A DNA stretch of 64,000 bases from an uncultured Sneathiellales bacterium (lineage in GTDB: Bacteria > Pseudomonadota > Alphaproteobacteria > CAYFNG01), in the NCBI GenBank assembly GCA_964344385.1, contig CAYFNG010000005.1, positions 23,583-87,582 of the forward strand, written 5' to 3'. A program made the position numbers and the translations under genes. Every line of letters begins with the position of its first letter. Position 1 is the first letter of the stretch. Below are positions 38,959-46,653 of this stretch, in pieces. Under the pieces are notes generated by a model, which ran no database searches, had not been told where the DNA came from, and saw only the letters and a program-made list of their open reading frames with translations.

Positions 38959-40185
38959 TTGACCATGGACGCATACACGGATACGACCGGCCGAAGTGAA
39001 AACCCGGCTGGCACCACGCGTGCCCGGCTTCGCCAATTGGGTGTCGATGAACTCTCGGAGTTGATGCTTGAGGTCGTCGGCGACAATATCGACGCCATCG
39101 ACCGGCTGCAGCAAGCGGTGCAGAAACGCGAGGGCGCCCCGGAACCGTCCCCGGTGCAGGAACCGGAAAGCGAGCAGTTCATGGTTGGCAGCAGCCCAGC
39201 CATGCGGCGCGTGTTCGACCGCATCCGACGGTTCGGTGCCACCGACGCGCCGGTTCTGGTATTGGGGGAGAGTGGCACCGGCAAGGAACTGGCCGCCCGG
39301 GCGATCCATGAGCGGTCCCGGCAAGCGAACGCACCCTTCGTTGCCATCAACTGCGCCGGCCTGCCGTCCAGCCTGATCGCATCGGAGTTGTTCGGGCACG
39401 AAAAGGGCGCGTTTACCGGCGCGACCCAGCGGCGCATCGGCCGAATCGAAGCGGCCGCCGGCGGCACCGTGCTGTTGGACGAGATCGGCGACATCCCGAT
39501 AGAACTGCAACCGTATCTTTTGCGATTTCTCGAGGAAAAAACGATCGACCGGGTTGGCGGCACCCATCCGATCGAGGTCGACGTCCGGGTCGTCGCCGCC
39601 ACCAATACCGACCTCAAAGTGGCGATCGAGGAAGGCAGATTCCGCGAAGATTTGTTTTATCGCCTGAACGTCCTGACCCTGGAGCTGCCGGCGCTTCGGG
39701 AACGCAGCGACGATATCTCTTTAATTAGCCGATTTTTTCTTGAGAAATTTGCCCGCGAAATGGGGCGGGAAGACTGCCGGTTTTCCGACAGCGCCATGGC
39801 GGCGATTCGCAGCCATGTCTGGCCGGGCAATGTCCGTGAACTGATCAGCCGGGTTCGCCAAGGCGTGGTGATGAGCGAGGATGGTTGCCTGACCGTCGAG
39901 GACCTTGGCCTGCCGCAGTCCGTGGCACCGATCGAGAGCGTATCGGGCAGCGACGACCTGGACAGCCTGATCGCCCAGGTGGGAACGTCGCACCTGCTTC
40001 CCATCCTCGACCAGGCCCGCTACCAGCTGGAAGGCAAATTACTTCGGCGGGCCCTGGACCAAAACAACGAGAACGTCAAGAAAGCAGCGCAGGATTTGGG
40101 GGTGTCGCGGGTCACCCTGTACCGGCTGATGGAAAAGCACGGAATCCAGCGCACCAAAACCGTTCGGGCAGCCACAACACGATAG
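38959..40185 (+). CDS. Sigma54-dependent transcriptional activator (bEBP) with a short N-terminal domain and Fis-type HTH
   Basis: AAA+ sigma54 domain: Walker [45 protein letters not shown]-terminal [27 protein letters not shown]. Preceded by a 680-bp AT-rich non-coding region. Confidence 0.9.
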
Positions 40186-40484: not shown

Positions 40485-41777
40485 TTGAAGCTCAGTCGAG
40501 GGAATGGATGCACGGTGGCGGGCGCCGCCTTGGTCCTGGCGGCAACGGCCGCCATTCCACCTGGAAAAGCCGGCGACCTTTCCAACAGCCAGTTGGAATT
40601 GGACCGGCTGCGCCAGGAAATTGCCGCCGAACGCCAGCAACTGGCCGATCAGCAACAGGCGCTGGAGCGACAGTACGAGGCGCTGCAGAATCAACGTGAC
40701 CGACTCGAAGCGCTGGAAGCCCAACTTGATGGCGTCGGTGGTCCGCGGATTGAACGGGCCGGCTATCGGGTGCCGTCCACGACACGGGATCGCATGCGGG
40801 ACGGCGGCAGGCGGACGCAGGTGCAGACCACACCGCAGGCCGGCGAAGCGCCGTCCGAAGAGCGGCCCCGGGTCCAGGCGCTGGTGGAATCCGGCGGCGT
40901 GTTGCTGCCCCAGGGTAATTTCGTCCTGGAACCGTCGTTCGAATATGTGCGAAGCGACGTCAACCGGGCGGAGATCGTCGGCTTCACGGTGCTGCCCGGC
41001 ATTGTCGTCGGCAACATTTCCGTGGTCGAGGCCAACCGTAACACCTATGTCGCTGCTTTGACCGGCCGGTACGGCGTCACCGACCGGCTGGAGATCGAGG
41101 CCAAGGTACCCTATGTGATGCGCGATGATAGCACGACGACCCGTGAGATCGGGCAGGGCGCATCGGCAGACGTTGTCACCAGTGCCGACGGCAACGATGT
41201 CGGCGACATCGAAGCCGCGATCCACTACCAGCTGAATCAGCCTTCCGCCGGCAAGCCCTATTTCGTCGGCAATCTGCGTGTCAAATCCCGCACCGGCACC
41301 GACCCGTTCGAGGTGCCGCGCGACGCGACCACCAATGCCGAACTTGAGTTGCCAACCGGCACCGGTTTTTGGGCAATCGAACCAAGCGTGACCGCCATCC
41401 TGCCGTCGGACCCGGCGGTGCTTTACGGCAATCTCAGCTATCTGTGGAACATGGAGCGCAACATCGGCGGCCAGTTCGGCAAGATCGACCCCGGCGATGC
41501 CATTGGCCTGAATATGGGTTTGGGTATCGGGTTGAACGAAGACCTGTCCTTGAGCCTTGGGTACGATCACAAAGTGGTCGGCAAAACCACGCAGAACGGC
41601 CAACGCTTGACCGGATCGGACACCCTGCATGTCGGCAAGATGCTGTTGGGCAGCACCTATCGGATGTCGGATTCCACGTCGCTGAACCTGTCCTTCGGTA
41701 TCGGCGTCACCGACGATGCCCCGGACTTCGATTTTGTCGTGCGCTGGCCGATCACGTTCGGCGATCCGGACGACTAG
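40485..41777 (+). CDS. Outer-membrane protein with N-terminal coiled coil and C-terminal beta-barrel (FapF-like architecture)
   Basis: Probable TTG start 5 nt after AAGGAGG. Signal peptide (AGAALVLAATAA). Heptad coiled coil QLELDRLRQEIAAERQQLADQQQALERQYEALQNQRDRLEALEAQL. Pro/Gly linker. ~290 aa of alternating beta strands ending …FVVRWPITF. Confidence 0.7.
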   Translation: MKLSRGNGCTVAGAALVLAATAAIPPGKAGDLSNSQLELDRLRQEIAAERQQLADQQQALERQYEALQNQRDRLEALEAQLDGVGGPRIERAGYRVPSTTRDRMRDGGRRTQVQTTPQAGEAPSEERPRVQALVESGGVLLPQGNFVLEPSFEYVRSDVNRAEIVGFTVLPGIVVGNISVVEANRNTYVAALTGRYGVTDRLEIEAKVPYVMRDDSTTTREIGQGASADVVTSADGNDVGDIEAAIHYQLNQPSAGKPYFVGNLRVKSRTGTDPFEVPRDATTNAELELPTGTGFWAIEPSVTAILPSDPAVLYGNLSYLWNMERNIGGQFGKIDPGDAIGLNMGLGIGLNEDLSLSLGYDHKVVGKTTQNGQRLTGSDTLHVGKMLLGSTYRMSDSTSLNLSFGIGVTDDAPDFDFVVRWPITFGDPDD

Positions 41778-42010: not shown

Positions 42011-42568
42011 TCAGAAACCAAGCGTCAGTTGGTAGCTCAGATTGTTGATCGTGGTGGCCAACCGGGAACTGATCACCGCGGTATTGAAGGTATCGACGGT
42101 GATCTTGCTGATGTTCTGAATATTTACATTGTCCCGAGTGTTCTGGACCAAGGTCAGGACACCGCTGAAGTCGTCAAAACTGACTGCCGAGTTTCCGTCG
42201 CCCACCTGGGTCACTTGGGTGACGCCATGGTCGGTGATTTCCACGCCCGGCGGCGGCGTGCCACGGGTCAGGTCTTCGGACGTGAAACTGTAACGGACCC
42301 GGTCTTCGCCGTTGATCCGCCTGAGGATCTCGACGCCGAAACGGAAACGGAAGCCGCCGCGGGTGAAGCCGCCGCGCATATTGTCCAGTTCCTGGTCGCC
42401 GACCTTGGCCATCCCGGCGAAGGGATTGTCGCTCGATGCCAAAGCGGCAGCGGCCGGATTGCCGACTGCGGAGAAACCCAACAGGAGCAGCGCGACAACC
42501 AGGCCCGCCAGTCCGTTGGTCGATAGTTTGTTCCAGCTTGTCATTGTCATTATCCCCCTCCCAGCCAA
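42011..42568 (-). CDS. Secreted curlin-repeat protein (minor amyloid subunit, FapE/CsgB-like role)
   Basis: Signal peptide. Canonical curlin motif TQVTQVGDGNSAVSF (Q-x-G-x-G-N-x-A). Gln/Asn/Thr-rich C-terminus ending in F. Confidence 0.65.
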   Translation of the reverse strand: MAGRGIMTMTSWNKLSTNGLAGLVVALLLLGFSAVGNPAAAALASSDNPFAGMAKVGDQELDNMRGGFTRGGFRFRFGVEILRRINGEDRVRYSFTSEDLTRGTPPPGVEITDHGVTQVTQVGDGNSAVSFDDFSGVLTLVQNTRDNVNIQNISKITVDTFNTAVISSRLATTINNLSYQLTLGF

Positions 42569-42572
42569 ACGT

Positions 42573-43268
42573 CTAGAAGTCGCCGGTGCCCGGCAGCAAC
42601 ATGGTGAATGTCGCCAGGCCCTGACGGCTAAGTGCGGAACCGAATGGTGCCTTCTGGCGAACCAGCCAGTCCTCTTTCTGGTTGAAATGGGTCTTGGCCA
42701 GCGGAATATTCTGGGTTACGACGAACAGGATGCCGTTCCACATCGCTTCGAATTCAGCCCGGTTATAGGTCTTGGTGCCCAAGGCAGGGTCACCGACCAG
42801 GATTTCATCGTCGCTCAAACCCTTGACGACGACGAAGTGACGGTAGCCGCGAGTGGTGATCAGGGTAATCGCGGGAATGCCCACCTCCAGCAGCTTGTCC
42901 AACGGTGCCCGGAAACCGTCCGACTGGATATTGCGGCGGTTCAGGTACTGTTTCATATCCAGAAGCGAGAACCCTTCCTTGCGGATTTTCGTCTGGTCGC
43001 CGGTTTGGTACATATCCTTGAAGACGGCCTGTTCGGTGACCGGGCTGTCATAGTGATGCGACAGCAAGGTCGCGATCGCCGCCGAGCCGCAACTGAAATC
43101 ATAGGCCTGCTTCACCACGTTGCGAAACCGCGCTTCCTTAAGGCTGACGATCGGCAGCGAGAAATCCCCGCCGACCCCAAACACCGGAAGTGACGCGGCA
43201 CCCGCGTCCCGGCCTTGCAGGCCGAAAAGCAGGAAACCCACCAATATCACGTTGAGGAACGGTCGCAT
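42573..43268 (-). CDS. Periplasmic peptidase C39-like cysteine protease (FapD-like)
   Basis: Signal peptide. Catalytic Cys in FSCGSAAIATLLSHHY, catalytic His in GYRHFVVVKG, and a downstream Asp (LVGDPALG). No ABC-transporter domain. Confidence 0.85.
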   Translation of the reverse strand: MRPFLNVILVGFLLFGLQGRDAGAASLPVFGVGGDFSLPIVSLKEARFRNVVKQAYDFSCGSAAIATLLSHHYDSPVTEQAVFKDMYQTGDQTKIRKEGFSLLDMKQYLNRRNIQSDGFRAPLDKLLEVGIPAITLITTRGYRHFVVVKGLSDDEILVGDPALGTKTYNRAEFEAMWNGILFVVTQNIPLAKTHFNQKEDWLVRQKAPFGSALSRQGLATFTMLLPGTGDF

Positions 43269-43326: not shown

Positions 43327-43692
43327 TTAGTGGTGGTTGATGGTCACGATCGTCGCGGTTTGAATGACGACGTTGTTGCCCGAGTTCTGGATCACCGTGG
43401 CAATGCCCGAGGCGCCGGAAAACGCGGCATCGACAATGGTGTTGGAACGTGTGGATCCATTGTCGATTGCCGTATTGTCGTGGTGATCGCTGTCGAACAT
43501 GTGATCGAAATCGAAATCGTCCGAGCCACCGCGAACGGTGGCCAGATCGCTCAAGGCCACCTTCTGTCCGGCACCGACCAGGGCATCCAATCCCGATTCG
43601 CTGGACAACTCGCCGCCAAAGGCTGCGCCGCCAAACCCCATGACTGCCAACAGAACGAACGGTCCCATTCGGGTTATGTAGGTCGTTCTCAT
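43327..43692 (-). CDS. Small secreted curlin-repeat protein (nucleator-like, CsgB/FapB analogue)
   Basis: Signal peptide, then a single repeat …SGASGIATVIQNSGNNVVIQTATIV… resembling the repeat core of the adjacent giant protein. Confidence 0.6.
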   Translation of the reverse strand: MRTTYITRMGPFVLLAVMGFGGAAFGGELSSESGLDALVGAGQKVALSDLATVRGGSDDFDFDHMFDSDHHDNTAIDNGSTRSNTIVDAAFSGASGIATVIQNSGNNVVIQTATIVTINHH

Positions 43693-43736: not shown

Positions 43737-43768
43737 GCGGCTGGCGGAGGTGTGGTTCCGCCAGCCGC
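43737..43768 (-). terminator. Intra-operon hairpin (12-bp perfect stem GCGGCTGGCGGA/TCCGCCAGCCGC) right after the giant repeat-protein gene, followed by CUUUUCC
   Basis: Located in the 85-bp gap between the major-subunit gene stop (43778) and the next gene. Typical differential-expression attenuator of fimbrial or amyloid operons. Confidence 0.55.
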
Positions 43769-43777
43769 GTCGGGGTA

Positions 43778-45757
43778 TCAGTAGTTGGCAACAACGCTGA
43801 TTGCCGACTGGATGGCGTTGTTGTTCCCGTTGTTTTGCTGGACGACCATCACACCCGCGGCACCCATGAAGGAGCCCGAGACCGTGTTCAGGAAGCCCGG
43901 CGCACCGACCGTCGGCTCGACGATCGACGTGTTCCCGGAAACCGTAGCGCCCAGTGCGGCCATCGAACTTGCCGGCCCGAACCCGAGGCCGCCGCCGCCG
44001 CTGTCATCGACGATGACCGCATTGGCCGAACCCATGACGTTGTTGTCGCCATTGTTCTGCTGCAGGGTCATGATGCCCGCGGCACCGTTGAACGCACCGC
44101 CTGACACACTGTTGGTGCGATCGACGAATTCGGTCGCGATCGCCCAGTTCTCGGTCACTTCAGCGTTGCCATAAGCGGCGTTCGATGCCCGGTTGGCGGT
44201 ATGGTCAGCGCTGCCGAGATTGGCAACCACCGCGTTGGCCGCCTGGATGACGTTTTGGCTGCCATTATTCTGCTGCACCGTCAGCACCCCGGCGGCATTG
44301 CCGAAGGAATTGGTCACGGTGTTGCCGCGGTTGGAGGCCCAGTCGCGGGTTTCAACGCCCGACACCATGCCTTCATTCGATGCCGTGGACCAGTTGACCA
44401 CATCCGTGTTCTCGTGGCTGCCCACATTGGCGACCACCGCGGTGGCGGCGCCCATCATGTTGTTGTCGCCATTGTTCTGCTGGACCGTGGCGATGCCTTC
44501 ATAGCCGTTGAACGACGGGTTGATCAGGTTGCTGCGATCCAGGTCGTCGCCAGCAGCCGACATCTCGGTCGACATCGTCGTGCCTTCGATGCTGCCATAG
44601 TTACTGGCCGACTGGGTCCGAACCCGTTCAAAATCGCCGTCGATAATGCCGGTCGTATCGATATTGGCATTCACCGCCGTCGCACCGGCCATCACGTTGT
44701 TGCTGCCGTTGTTCTGCTGCACGGTGGCGATGCCGGCGGCGCCATTGAACGAATTGGTCACCGCGTTGTCGCGGTCGCCCCAGGCTTCCTGCCGAACGTC
44801 GAGTCCCCGCAGAAGGCCCCGGTTGCCGGCCGAAGTGTCGGCATCCTGGTCCACCGTGCTGGGTGCCGGAAGGTTGGCGTTGCCCAGATTGCCGACCACA
44901 CCGGTCGCCGCCGACAGGACATTGCCGTCGCCATTGTTCTGTTGAACCGTGGCTACACCGCTATAGCCGTCGAACGAGCTGTCGATGGTGTTGTCACGTG
45001 ACTGGCTGCGGTCGACGATGGCCTGATTCCCCACCGAACCACCGGCTGAAACCGACTGCCCCACTCGTCCGGCACCCATGTTCATGAACACCGCCGTGGC
45101 CGCCGACATCGCATTGCCGTTGCCGTTGTTCTGCTGCACCGTGGCGACACCGCCCGCGTTGTTGAACGACGGGTTGATCAGGTTGCTGCGGGCGCTTTCC
45201 TCATCGACCAGGAAACGGCTGTCGTCGCCGCGCTGGGCTGAGGTGTTGCCTTCGGCGCTGACCGACTGGCTGGCGTTGCCGCGGCCGCCGGTTCCGGTGT
45301 GGACCGCCGTGGCGGCACCGATTTCGTTGTGGTCGCCGTTGTTCTGCTGAACGGTGGCCACACCGAAATAGTCTTCGAAGCTGTTGAGGATTTCATTGTC
45401 GCGGGTGCCGCCCACATTGACCGTCTCGTTGTCAAATGTGTTCGAATATACGGCCGCGCCGCCGCCAATATTCTGGTTGTTGGCGATATTGGCGTGGGCC
45501 GCCGTGGCCGCGCCAATCGAGTTGTTGCTGCCGTTGTTCTGCTGCGCGTGGGTGATCCCGGCCGCGCCGTTATAGGCACCATTGTTTATGGTATTCAACC
45601 GCGTGCTGCCGTAGTCGGCGGCATAGTTGCCGGAAACGGTTTCGTCTTCGGCACCGACAGAAGCATCGGCGATCGGTTCATCGGCCCAAGCCTGCGTCGC
45701 AGTCCCAACCGTCAATGCGATGGCCGAGGCACCCATTAAAAGGAGACTTTTCCTCAT
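43778..45757 (-). CDS. Giant secreted curlin-repeat protein (660 aa; 9 tandem ~70-aa repeats with core SF-G-AGxATVQQNNG-x-N-x-AATAV). Putative major amyloid subunit
   Basis: ATG 45757 after AGGAGA. Signal peptide MRKSLLLMGASAIALTVGTATQAWA. Nine QQNNG(D/S/N)xN cores. Ser/Asn/Gly/Ala/Thr-rich low-complexity sequence ending in Y. Confidence 0.85.
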   Translation of the reverse strand: MRKSLLLMGASAIALTVGTATQAWADEPIADASVGAEDETVSGNYAADYGSTRLNTINNGAYNGAAGITHAQQNNGSNNSIGAATAAHANIANNQNIGGGAAVYSNTFDNETVNVGGTRDNEILNSFEDYFGVATVQQNNGDHNEIGAATAVHTGTGGRGNASQSVSAEGNTSAQRGDDSRFLVDEESARSNLINPSFNNAGGVATVQQNNGNGNAMSAATAVFMNMGAGRVGQSVSAGGSVGNQAIVDRSQSRDNTIDSSFDGYSGVATVQQNNGDGNVLSAATGVVGNLGNANLPAPSTVDQDADTSAGNRGLLRGLDVRQEAWGDRDNAVTNSFNGAAGIATVQQNNGSNNVMAGATAVNANIDTTGIIDGDFERVRTQSASNYGSIEGTTMSTEMSAAGDDLDRSNLINPSFNGYEGIATVQQNNGDNNMMGAATAVVANVGSHENTDVVNWSTASNEGMVSGVETRDWASNRGNTVTNSFGNAAGVLTVQQNNGSQNVIQAANAVVANLGSADHTANRASNAAYGNAEVTENWAIATEFVDRTNSVSGGAFNGAAGIMTLQQNNGDNNVMGSANAVIVDDSGGGGLGFGPASSMAALGATVSGNTSIVEPTVGAPGFLNTVSGSFMGAAGVMVVQQNNGNNNAIQSAISVVANY

Positions 45758-45902: not shown

Positions 45903-45918
45903 AGCAAAGCTTATGCCA
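45903..45918 (-). promoter_or_regulatory. Sigma54 promoter (minus strand TGGCAT-aagct-TTGCT) for the curlin-repeat operon
   Basis: Exact -24/-12 spacing (GG and GC 10 nt apart). ~135 nt upstream of ATG 45757, in an AT-rich leader. A sigma54 activator gene is 6 kb away in the same cluster. Confidence 0.7.
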
Positions 45919-46233
45919 TTTGGTCTATTTTTGATAAGTAATTGTTTTTATTTATGTTTATTGCGCCTGGAATCAACGCAGCAAGATATATGTAAATGTC
46001 TTGTAACTAATGGTTAAGGCTACCGAGCCGGATATTTACCTAAAATTAGCTATAAACGGACGTTTTCTGCGAACGATTCGCAATTAGGCGGGGTTGACAG
46101 TGTTACAGCAACGTTACACTCAAGGGTGAGCCCCCGCTTTCCCGGTATCGATCTGTTAACCATGCCGACAATCGGCACAAAAAGGCCGTCGCGCGGGTTC
46201 TGCGCGACGGCAGGAAAACCGGAAGTCTGGTGT

Positions 46234-46572
46234 TTATTGGCGGCCCGAAATCGAACTGGAAATCTGATTCGATCCGATATTCCGCGGCAATGTCTGACCA
46301 GCCGGTTGCGGCGGCTTGAATTCGTCCCACAGGATGACGGCCACACCCGTCTCGTTGCCGGAAGCGCCCGGCGCACCGAGGTTTTCGCCTGCCCGCTGGC
46401 GCGAGAGCTCGTCCATGGCAACCGCTTGGCCACCAAGCGGGGAGATCTGGGCGCTGGCCAAGTGCAATAGTCGATCTTCGGCCGCGACCGGGCCGGAAAG
46501 CATGGCCAGACCAGACAGCGCCAGCACTGCTGTCGCGGCCTTGAGGCAGGGTCGAAGAATTCGCTTCACCAT
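46234..46572 (-). CDS. Small secreted protein (112 aa, signal peptide), candidate accessory component of the amyloid locus
   Basis: Signal peptide LALSGLAMLSGPVAA. Preceded by its own sigma54-type promoter. Confidence 0.5.
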   Translation of the reverse strand: MVKRILRPCLKAATAVLALSGLAMLSGPVAAEDRLLHLASAQISPLGGQAVAMDELSRQRAGENLGAPGASGNETGVAVILWDEFKPPQPAGQTLPRNIGSNQISSSISGRQ

Positions 46573-46637: not shown

Positions 46638-46653
46638 GGCAAACTTCATGCCA
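46638..46653 (-). promoter_or_regulatory. Second sigma54 promoter (minus strand TGGCAT-gaagt-TTGCC), upstream of the 112-aa secreted protein gene
   Basis: Same TGGCAT -24 element and exact spacing as the promoter at 45903-45918. ~55 nt upstream of ATG 46572. Confidence 0.6.

What the first reader, a model, noticed from the sequence alone, without database searches (positions are those of the whole stretch)
43778..45757. Giant nine-repeat curlin-like protein (660 aa), far larger than CsgA or FapC
After a Sec signal peptide the protein is nine consecutive ~65-75-aa units, each built around NSF-G-AAG-(I/V)ATVQQNNG-(D/S/N)-x-N-x-(I/M)-(G/S)AATAV followed by a variable Gly/Asn/Ser-rich linker. It ends in an aromatic residue. 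CsgA has five ~22-aa repeats (≈130 aa) and FapC three. A single polypeptide with nine long pseudo-repeats would form an unusually large beta-solenoid amyloid unit. Repeat-number variation in this gene could also be a strain-level polymorphism hotspot.
Basis: seen in the sequence. Interest (0 to 1): 0.75.

Follow-up and report, generated by a model that had tools for sequence, protein, structure and literature searches.

The report
Nine-layer FapC-type amyloid subunit gene
The gene encodes a secreted protein of nine long repeats that is a distant, enlarged relative of FapC, the Pseudomonas biofilm amyloid subunit; it sits in a Fap-type secretion gene cluster, so it is an unannotated variant of a known system and not a new kind of protein.

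Summary
Window 45757..43778 (- strand) encodes a 659-aa Sec-exported protein with nine homologous units of about 70 aa, each built around QQNNG.

"Curlin-like" is the wrong family. The neighbouring genes encode homologues of FapD (a C39 peptidase), FapE and FapF (the outer-membrane channel). An exhaustive protein search links the repeat protein to three-repeat FapB/C proteins in bona fide fap operons.

AlphaFold2 gives a confident all-beta model (pLDDT 87) with about five strands per repeat, the same layer plan as the FapC fibril solved by cryo-EM. The best reading is a nine-layer FapC-type amyloid subunit, exported through the FapF-like channel and transcribed from a sigma-54 promoter.

It is not exceptionally large. 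Family members carry 4 to 42 repeats, and nine is the most common number. FapC outliers with 4-16 repeats are already published. The suggested strain-level hotspot for repeat number is not supported.

What differs from Pseudomonas Fap is the repeat motif, the layer number, a single-repeat partner protein where FapB would be, conserved sigma-54 control and a mostly alphaproteobacterial host range. Fibril formation itself is inferred, not shown. Interest is moderate.

The parts
43778..45757 (-). Gene for the 659-aa nine-repeat FapC-type subunit. Signal peptide is about aa 1-25 (nt 45757..45683). The HMM-defined repeat cores lie at nt 45485-45610, 45296-45412, 45080-45196, 44888-45004, 44660-44779, 44423-44539, 44216-44335, 44006-44122 and 43784-43891.
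45903..45918 (-). Sigma-54 (-24/-12) promoter TGGCATAAGCTTTGCT. It ends 145 nt upstream of the ATG and is preceded by an AT-rich stretch (about 45919-46060) in a genome of about 64% GC.
   Evidence: It is the only exact match to TGGCAYN5TTGCW in the 64-kb window; 0.07 are expected. Sequence context. Equivalent elements lie 54-250 nt upstream of the repeat gene at ten sites in nine related loci.
43737..43768 (-). Hairpin with a 12-bp, GC-rich stem, followed by a short T-rich tail (CTTTTCC), 10 nt after the stop codon of the repeat gene. Likely terminator or attenuator.
   Evidence: Its function is inferred from the pattern scan only.
43327..43692 (-). 121-aa secreted protein that ends in a single repeat unit (..GIATVIQNSGNNVVIQTATIV..). 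After its signal peptide it carries an LSDLATVRGG motif. It lies where a second, FapB-like subunit would be expected.
   Evidence: The repeat HMM hits aa 77-119 at E 9e-13. Relatives lie between the repeat gene and the C39 gene in most related loci.
42573..43268 (-). FapD-like periplasmic C39 cysteine peptidase, 231 aa. Candidate catalytic residues Cys60, His144 and Asp160.
   Evidence: Pfam Peptidase_C39 5e-21. NCBIfam FapD 4e-46, below the equivalog cutoff. 42% identity to Pseudomonas FapD, E 2e-44. Residue positions.
42011..42550 (-). FapE-like 179-aa secreted protein. It has a motif like a double-glycine leader (V-G-D-Q-E-L-D-N-M-R-G-G) after its signal peptide and one degenerate repeat near the C-terminus.
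40485..41777 (+). FapF-like outer-membrane channel: 430 aa as called, with the ORF extendable to 40389. An N-terminal coiled coil is followed by a beta-barrel.
   Evidence: NCBIfam FapF 1e-52, below cutoff. PDB FapF 5o65 at 1.4e-35. 30% identity to Pseudomonas FapF, E 7e-41. Coiled-coil-type Pfam hits in residues 46-123.
38959..40185 (+). Sigma-54-dependent transcriptional activator (AAA+ domain plus Fis-type HTH). No Pfam receiver domain is detected in its short N-terminus of about 70 aa.
   Evidence: Pfam Sigma54_activat 5e-69 and HTH_8. Homologous activators lie next to the cluster in at least ten related loci.
46234..46572 (-). 112-aa secreted protein of unknown role. It has its own sigma-54-like element (TGGCATGAAGTTTGCC, 46653..46638) and its own hairpin terminator (46211..46185). 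Relatives were detected in some related loci.
   Evidence: ORF. Promoter-like site. Terminator-like site. Relatives in L006-L008 and an ..AVILWDE.. protein in Thermithiobacillus.

Best explanation
The gene encodes the major fibre subunit of a divergent Fap-type (functional amyloid of Pseudomonas) system carried by an alphaproteobacterium, probably of the Rhodospirillales.

Proposed sequence of events:
1. Transcription starts at a sigma-54 promoter 145 nt upstream, driven by the activator encoded next to the cluster. A strong hairpin just after the gene probably keeps subunit transcripts in excess over the downstream accessory genes.
2. The protein crosses the inner membrane by Sec, with signal-peptide cleavage after AWA.
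3. It stays unfolded in the periplasm and leaves through the trimeric FapF-like barrel. This step depends on the FapD-like C39 peptidase. The likeliest substrate of that peptidase is the FapE-like protein, which carries a double-glycine-type leader.
4. Outside the cell, each repeat of about 70 aa folds into one five-strand Greek-key cross-beta layer. Three strands come from the conserved core (RxNxIxNS, G-I-A-T-V-Q-Q-N, xxGAATAVxAN) and one or two from the variable linker. Asn/Gln ladders and turn glycines would stabilise the stack.
5. The nine layers stack into a solenoid about 44 A tall with no detectable caps. Solenoids then stack end to end into fibrils.
6. The single-repeat 121-aa protein and the FapE-like protein probably act as nucleator, cap or anchor.

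Shown here: the repeats, the homology of the D, E and F components, the sequence link to FapB/C, the predicted fold, the promoter motif and its conservation. Inferred: secretion route, the processing step, polymerisation, and the roles of the small proteins.
For: Repeats.

Fap context: the C39 protein against FapD (E 2e-44) and the barrel against FapF (E 7e-41; PDB 5o65 at 1e-35). FapE-like protein. The same gene set (repeat gene, 121-like, C39, 179-like, FapF-like, sigma-54 activator) recurs in most of the 18 GTDB loci and in Indioceanicola.

Homology to FapB/C: an exhaustive phmmer search of 1.84 billion representatives returned only 139 hits. The weak tail (E about 7e-7 to 7e-4) includes three-repeat proteins of about 250 aa. 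NCBIfam scores these as FapC/FapB at 1e-11 to 1e-16. One of them, P0293, lies in an operon with three Pfam FapBC genes followed by a C39 gene. Pfam PF27129 (FapBC) is the only precomputed Pfam hit on about 22 of the 107 family members.

Sigma-54: an exact consensus site unique in the window, with equivalents at ten sites in nine related loci.
Against: Direct profile tests against canonical Pseudomonas FapC are not significant. The family repeat HMM scores UK4 FapC below most shuffled controls. hhalign gives P=0.016 in the expected register, but 16 of 300 column shuffles do as well.

NCBIfam FapB/C/E models and the local Pfam copy do not hit the window protein or its small neighbours. The published minimal Fap repeat pattern G-x4-N-x3-G-x6-N matches zero times; a relaxed pattern G-x4-[NQ]-x3-G-x2-N matches nine times.

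Confidence: 0.72

Rival explanations
1. A non-polymerising surface beta-helix protein, such as an adhesin or matrix protein. It would use the FapF/FapD-like export route but act as a monomeric nine-turn solenoid, not as a fibril subunit.
Against: No capping helix or anchoring domain is visible: the protein is repeats from the signal peptide to the last residue. Sequence links lead to FapB/C amyloid subunits. A single-repeat partner protein only makes sense if layers can stack between different chains. CsgA and FapC homologues with many repeats are still described as fibril subunits (PMC12822426, PMC12392863).
Confidence: 0.17
2. A curli-type (CsgA-family) subunit.
Against: No Curlin_rpt or other Pfam hit. 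None of the flanking cluster genes scanned matched a Csg family; they match FapD and FapF instead. The repeat period is about 70 aa with about five strands, against about 22 aa with two strands for curlin. Identity to the CsgA structures is 11-13%, against 21% to FapC.
Confidence: 0.03
3. A repeat-rich precursor or cargo that the C39 peptidase cuts into peptides, in the manner of a bacteriocin or RiPP, and not a structural protein.
For: A C39 peptidase gene lies two genes downstream. C39 enzymes classically process double-glycine leaders.
Against: The repeat protein has a Sec signal and no leader of the double-glycine type. That motif sits on the small FapE-like and 121-aa proteins instead. 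No ABC transporter is fused to or adjacent to the peptidase. The whole chain folds as one solenoid.
Confidence: 0.03

Closest known systems
FapC / FapB, the functional amyloid of Pseudomonas (fapABCDEF; Pfam PF27129 FapBC; PDB 9u4u, 9nqd)
   Same: Sec-exported protein rich in Asn, Gln, Gly and Ala, made of imperfect repeats. One repeat plus its linker (62-79 aa) forms one five-strand cross-beta layer. The core pattern G-x4-(N/Q)-x3-G-x2-N is shared. Genes for a periplasmic C39 peptidase (FapD), FapE and the FapF barrel are adjacent. The C-terminal residue is aromatic in both. A significant transitive sequence link runs through three-repeat FapB/C proteins.
   Different: Nine layers, where 94% of FapC genes have three (PMC12392863). 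The core is QQNNG where FapC has N-x-AAG..NQQ, so the published minimal regex and the NCBIfam models fail. The gene order is subunit, single-repeat protein, D, E, with F on the other strand, where Pseudomonas has A-B-C-D-E-F. No FapA and no three-repeat FapB were detected. Sigma-54 promoter and activator. Hosts are mostly Alphaproteobacteria.
Published multi-repeat FapC outliers (Acidithiobacillus, Acidiferrobacter, Vibrio brasiliensis; 4-16 repeats; PMC3792158, PMC12392863 Fig. S8)
   Same: Fap-type subunits with more than three layers, modelled as the same Greek-key stack. Thermithiobacillus tepidarius (Acidithiobacillia) carries two four-repeat members of the present family, with the same accessory genes and sigma-54 promoters.
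   Different: I could not check whether the published outliers carry the QQNNG-type core or the single-repeat partner. None of the papers read mentions Alphaproteobacteria, sigma-54 control, or members with up to 42 repeats.
Curli CsgA and its many-repeat homologues (e.g. Pontibacter korlensis CsgA, PDB 8c50)
   Different: Curlin repeats are about 22 aa and form two strands. Secretion uses CsgG/E/F, none of which was found here. There is no detectable sequence relationship.
Acinetobacter Fil putative pilus system (NCBIfam FilB, a C39 peptidase, and FilC)
   Same: The C39 and barrel proteins here also match FilB (1e-36) and FilC (4e-13), so Fil looks like another offshoot of the same export module.
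   Different: The matches are weaker than those to FapD and FapF. No Fil subunit models matched the repeat protein. Not examined further.

Membership tests
Fap functional amyloid system (FapB/C subunit family) | FapB/C imperfect-repeat sequence signature (Pfam PF27129 / FapBC_repeat HMM; minimal pattern X15-G-X4-N-X3-G-X6-N-X7) | tested here: inconclusive
   Direct tests fail. NCBIfam FapB/C gives no hit, the minimal regex gives 0 of 9, the family repeat HMM against UK4 FapC is not significant, and hhalign P=0.016 is matched by 16 of 300 shuffles.

Indirect tests succeed. phmmer gives E 7e-7 to 7e-4 to three-repeat proteins that NCBIfam and Pfam score as FapB/C and that lie in fap operons. About 22 of 107 family members carry weak precomputed PF27129 hits. 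The relaxed pattern G-x4-[NQ]-x3-G-x2-N matches 9 of 9 units. PF27129 itself is absent from the local Pfam copy, so it could not be run on the window protein.
Fap functional amyloid system | Adjacent periplasmic C39 peptidase (FapD) | tested here: met
   42573-43268. Pfam Peptidase_C39 5e-21, NCBIfam FapD 4e-46 (157 bits against an equivalog cutoff of 330), and 42% identity to Pseudomonas FapD. Cys60, His144 and Asp160 are present. The N-terminus looks like a signal peptide by eye.
Fap functional amyloid system | FapF outer-membrane channel (N-terminal coiled coil plus 12-stranded barrel) in the cluster | tested here: met
   40485-41777. NCBIfam FapF 1e-52 (179 bits against a cutoff of 700), PDB FapF 5o65 at 1.4e-35 and 30% identity to Pseudomonas FapF. 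The gene is on the opposite strand; separation of fapF is a known variation (PMC3792158).
Fap functional amyloid system | FapE minor subunit downstream of FapD | tested here: inconclusive
Fap functional amyloid system | A three-repeat FapB nucleator upstream of FapC, and FapA | tested here: not met
   No FapA or FapB homologue in the cluster. A 121-aa protein with one repeat lies downstream of the subunit gene, and an unrelated 112-aa secreted protein lies upstream. Loss of FapA is common in accepted Fap operons (PMC3792158).
Fap functional amyloid system | Three imperfect repeats per subunit (94% of FapC genes) | tested here: not met
   Nine units here and 4-42 across the family. This is typical of FapC but not strictly defining, since outliers with 4-16 repeats are accepted as FapC (PMC12392863).
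Fap functional amyloid system | Greek-key layer fold: five strands per layer of about 65 aa, stacked as a beta-solenoid | tested here: met
Fap functional amyloid system | Forms extracellular amyloid fibrils that resist SDS and dissolve in formic acid | not testable with these tools
   Needs expression, electron microscopy, ThT/FTIR and formic-acid solubilisation.
Curli (CsgA/CsgB, Curlin_rpt) | Curlin repeats of about 22 aa (Pfam Curlin_rpt) and CsgE/F/G secretion genes | tested here: not met
   No Pfam hit on the repeat protein at E<=0.1. None of the seven cluster proteins scanned matched a Csg family. The period is about 70 aa. The similarity is structural only.

The most novel reading that the evidence does not exclude
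This could be a distinct, so far undescribed lineage of the Fap export system. It occurs mainly in Rhodospirillales-type Alphaproteobacteria, with an outpost in Thermithiobacillus. Three things would set it apart.
1. The number of layers in the subunit varies freely, from 4 to 42.
2. A one-layer protein replaces the three-repeat FapB nucleator.
3. Expression is hard-wired to sigma-54.

In addition, the FapE-type protein carries a near-textbook double-glycine leader behind its Sec signal. That would identify FapE as the long-sought substrate of the periplasmic C39 peptidase FapD and make the processing step directly testable.
Probability: 0.4. Interest if true: 0.55.

Novelty: new variant of a known kind. 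Interest (0 to 1): 0.4.

Why it matters
Current surveys describe FapC as almost invariably three layers and treat the fap operon as highly conserved. This family shows that the same export module (FapD, FapE, FapF) serves subunits of 4 to 42 layers with a different core motif. The hosts are mostly Alphaproteobacteria and the proteins are annotated only as hypothetical. Curated FapB/C models do not recognise them.

The family offers a natural series for asking how layer number affects nucleation, fragmentation and fibre mechanics, and it gives long, confidently modelled solenoids for materials design. The conserved sigma-54 promoters give a handle on regulation. The clean double-glycine-type leader on the FapE-like protein bears on an open question in the Fap field: what FapD cleaves.

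None of this changes what kind of thing the protein is: a secreted amyloid-type matrix subunit.

Tried and rejected
- Pfam and NCBIfam scans of the repeat protein and of the 121-, 179- and 112-aa neighbours found nothing.
- A sequence search of the PDB with the repeat protein found nothing.
- The afdb50 library was unavailable.
- The family repeat HMM against UK4 FapC scored below shuffled controls. hhalign of the two repeat profiles was only marginal. The link to FapB/C therefore rests on intermediate sequences, not on a direct match.
- The sigma-54 pattern with two mismatches is not enriched in the window (71 matches against 78 expected). Only the exact consensus and its conserved position carry weight.
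- Rfam found nothing in the window. TRF found no DNA-level tandem array.
- Literature searches for Fap in Alphaproteobacteria and for PF27129 returned nothing.
- The curli, bacteriocin-precursor and slippage-hotspot readings were considered and rejected for the reasons given under the rival explanations and the first-reader verdict.

Full report
**What is there**

On the minus strand, 45757..43778, an ATG preceded by AGGAG opens a 659-codon gene. Public assemblies call the same gene, and the identical protein is present on seven metagenomic contigs. The product begins with a signal peptide ending in AWA|DEP. The rest consists of nine units spaced 64-79 aa apart, each containing an exact QQNNG.

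The nine 46-aa cores align almost without gaps. A repeat HMM built only from other members of the family scores each of the nine units at i-E 3e-16 to 2e-24. In 5000 shuffles of the mature protein no pentapeptide occurs more than three times.

**Surroundings**

- Downstream on the same strand lie three genes. The first encodes a 121-aa secreted protein that ends in one clear repeat unit (E 9e-13). The second encodes a C39 peptidase. The third encodes a 179-aa secreted protein with one degenerate repeat.
- Converging on them from the other strand are a sigma-54 activator gene and a gene for an outer-membrane protein with a coiled coil and a barrel.
- The peptidase matches NCBIfam FapD at 4e-46 and is 42% identical to Pseudomonas FapD.
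- The barrel matches NCBIfam FapF at 1e-52, the FapF crystal structure sequence at 1e-35, and Pseudomonas FapF at 30% identity.
- Both NCBIfam scores are far below the equivalog cutoffs. These are distant relatives, not orthologues of the Pseudomonas proteins.
- None of the cluster proteins scanned matched a Csg family.

**Family**

A word-indexed search found 107 relatives. An exhaustive phmmer search of 1.84 billion representative proteins found only 139. The family is therefore rare.

With the repeat HMM, members carry 4 to 42 units. Nine is the most common number, ten members in the first set have 16, and the largest is 3063 aa. Named sources are Azospirillaceae, Azospirillum and Indioceanicola. 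A scan of GTDB species genomes added MAGs of Rhodospirillales, Kiloniellales, Limimonas, Rhodospirillaceae and Paracoccaceae, and the cultured Thermithiobacillus tepidarius DSM 3134.

In most of those 18 loci the repeat gene is followed by a 121-like gene, the C39 gene and a 179-like gene. A FapF-like gene and a sigma-54 activator lie nearby. In Indioceanicola I confirmed only the 121-like and C39 genes.

**Is it a FapC relative?**

Direct tests are negative or marginal.
- The family repeat HMM does not score Pseudomonas sp. UK4 FapC above shuffled controls. That sequence was verified against PDB 9u4u/9nqd.
- hhalign of the two repeat profiles aligns them in the expected register, but with P=0.016, which 16 of 300 column shuffles equal.
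- The published minimal Fap pattern (PMC3792158) does not match. A relaxed form, G-x4-[NQ]-x3-G-x2-N, matches all nine units.

Indirect evidence is stronger.
- The weak tail of the exhaustive search (library-wide E about 7e-7 to 7e-4) includes three-repeat proteins of about 250 aa.
- NCBIfam scores these as FapC/FapB at 1e-11 to 1e-16.
- One of them lies in an operon with three Pfam-FapBC genes followed by a C39 gene.
- Pfam FapBC (PF27129) is also the only precomputed Pfam family on about 22 of the 107 relatives.

I conclude that the protein belongs to the FapB/C superfamily as a divergent clade. I could not run PF27129 on the window protein itself.

**Fold**

AlphaFold2 with 19 nine-repeat homologues gives pLDDT 87 and pTM 0.90. 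The model is all beta apart from the signal peptide.

Each repeat supplies three strands from its conserved core: RxNxIxNS, G-I-A-T-V-Q-Q-N and xxGAATAVxAN. One or two more strands come from the variable linker. Layers of 62-72 residues with five strands are what cryo-EM shows for FapC (PMC12459412, PMC12392863).

The DSSP string and the sequence show no capping helix or anchoring domain. This fits an open-ended, stackable solenoid. That last point is an inference, because I could not inspect the coordinates.

**Regulation**

The only exact sigma-54 consensus in the 64-kb window, TGGCATAAGCTTTGCT, ends 145 nt upstream of the ATG and lies behind an AT-rich stretch. Equivalent -24/-12 elements lie 54-250 nt upstream of the repeat gene at ten sites in nine related loci, including both repeat genes of Thermithiobacillus. 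None lies upstream of fapA-C in the Pseudomonas operon I examined. A GC-rich hairpin follows the repeat gene directly.

**Accessory proteins**

The 179-aa protein occupies the FapE position. A profile of its orthologues selects Pseudomonas FapE. After its signal peptide it carries V-x3-E-L-x2-M-R-G-G, and the gene downstream of C39 carries the same motif in eight other loci. From my own knowledge, this closely resembles the double-glycine leader consensus LSxxELxxIxGG.

Rouse et al. report that the FapD substrate is unknown, that FapE alone loses its N-terminus, and that Pseudomonas Fap proteins lack canonical C39 sites (PMC5557850). The motif here therefore supports FapD cleaving FapE. This remains an inference.

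**Verdict on the interpretation**

"Amyloid-type beta-solenoid subunit" is supported. "Curlin-like" should read "FapC-like". "Far larger" is true only relative to the model proteins, given the family range above and the published FapC outliers of 4-16 repeats (PMC3792158, PMC12392863).

The DNA repeats are 62-76% identical and have no long exact stretches. Relatives at 64% identity keep nine units that correspond one to one. Repeat number therefore looks fixed within lineages, not polymorphic between strains.

**Novelty**

The system is a variant of a known kind. It differs from described Fap operons in core motif, layer number, a one-repeat partner where FapB would be, gene order, sigma-54 control and host range. 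Fibril formation remains to be shown.

Noticed in passing
window 42011-42550 (- strand), aa ~49-61 of the 179-aa protein; also L007 8954, L008 13449, L009 4757, L010 13905, L016 14003, L018 12239, L021 13907, L024 8677: The FapE-position protein carries, just after its Sec signal peptide, a motif (V/I)-x-x-x-E-L-x-x-M-R-G-G that looks like a classical double-glycine leader for C39 peptidases. It is conserved across the clade and in a bona fide fap operon. Pseudomonas FapE has E-L-R-G-R at the same place. This could mark FapE as the substrate of FapD, which the literature lists as undetermined.
   Followed up: partly
window 45903-45918 and 46638-46653 (- strand); related loci L006, L007, L008, L010, L013, L015, L018, L019, L022: Sigma-54 -24/-12 elements sit upstream of the repeat gene, and of the 112-aa gene, in the window and at ten sites in nine related loci. 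A sigma-54 activator gene accompanies the cluster. The Pseudomonas fap operon examined (L004) also has a VpsR-type sigma-54 activator downstream but no consensus element upstream of fapA-C.
   Followed up: yes
window 46234-46572 (- strand): A 112-aa secreted protein with no family match. It has its own sigma-54-like promoter and hairpin terminator and an N-terminal M-D-E-L-S-R-Q-R-A-G motif. Relatives were detected in L006-L008, and Thermithiobacillus (L018 12623-13015) has a similar protein sharing ..AVILWDE... Its role is unknown.
   Followed up: partly
L013 3605-12796 and L014 146-9337 (protein P0229): A family member of 3063 aa with 42 repeats, followed by the same 121-like, C39 and FapF-like genes. 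L014 is labelled as an Anaerolineae MAG and L008 as a Flavobacteriales MAG. Given near-identical alphaproteobacterial counterparts, these labels may reflect binning errors.
   Followed up: no
proteins P0019, P0023, P0033-P0035, P0038-P0041, P0043, P0044, P0046, P0048, P0091; locus L005: Fourteen family members all list the same longest contig length (5,287,738 bp), which suggests one genome with many paralogues. One copy (L005) lies alone between a Mg-chelatase-like gene and grpE/hrcA, with no Fap genes nearby. Another metagenomic contig carries three tandem paralogues of about 1140 aa next to sialic-acid and nucleotide-sugar genes.
   Followed up: partly
window 41740-41777 (+ strand), C-terminus of the FapF-like protein: The barrel protein ends ..RWPITFGDPDD. 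The aromatic residue that usually ends outer-membrane barrels is followed by five extra residues. The Thermithiobacillus homologue ends ..LPITF and Pseudomonas FapF ends ..FPYYF.
   Followed up: no
window 43737-43768 and 46185-46211 (- strand): Two strong GC-rich hairpins with T-rich tails lie directly after the repeat gene and after the 112-aa gene. This suggests separate or attenuated transcription units inside the cluster.
   Followed up: partly
window 42573-43268 and 40485-41777: The C39 and barrel proteins also match the NCBIfam models for the Acinetobacter 'Fil' putative pilus proteins FilB (1e-36) and FilC (4e-13). The Fil system may be another derivative of the Fap export module.
   Followed up: no
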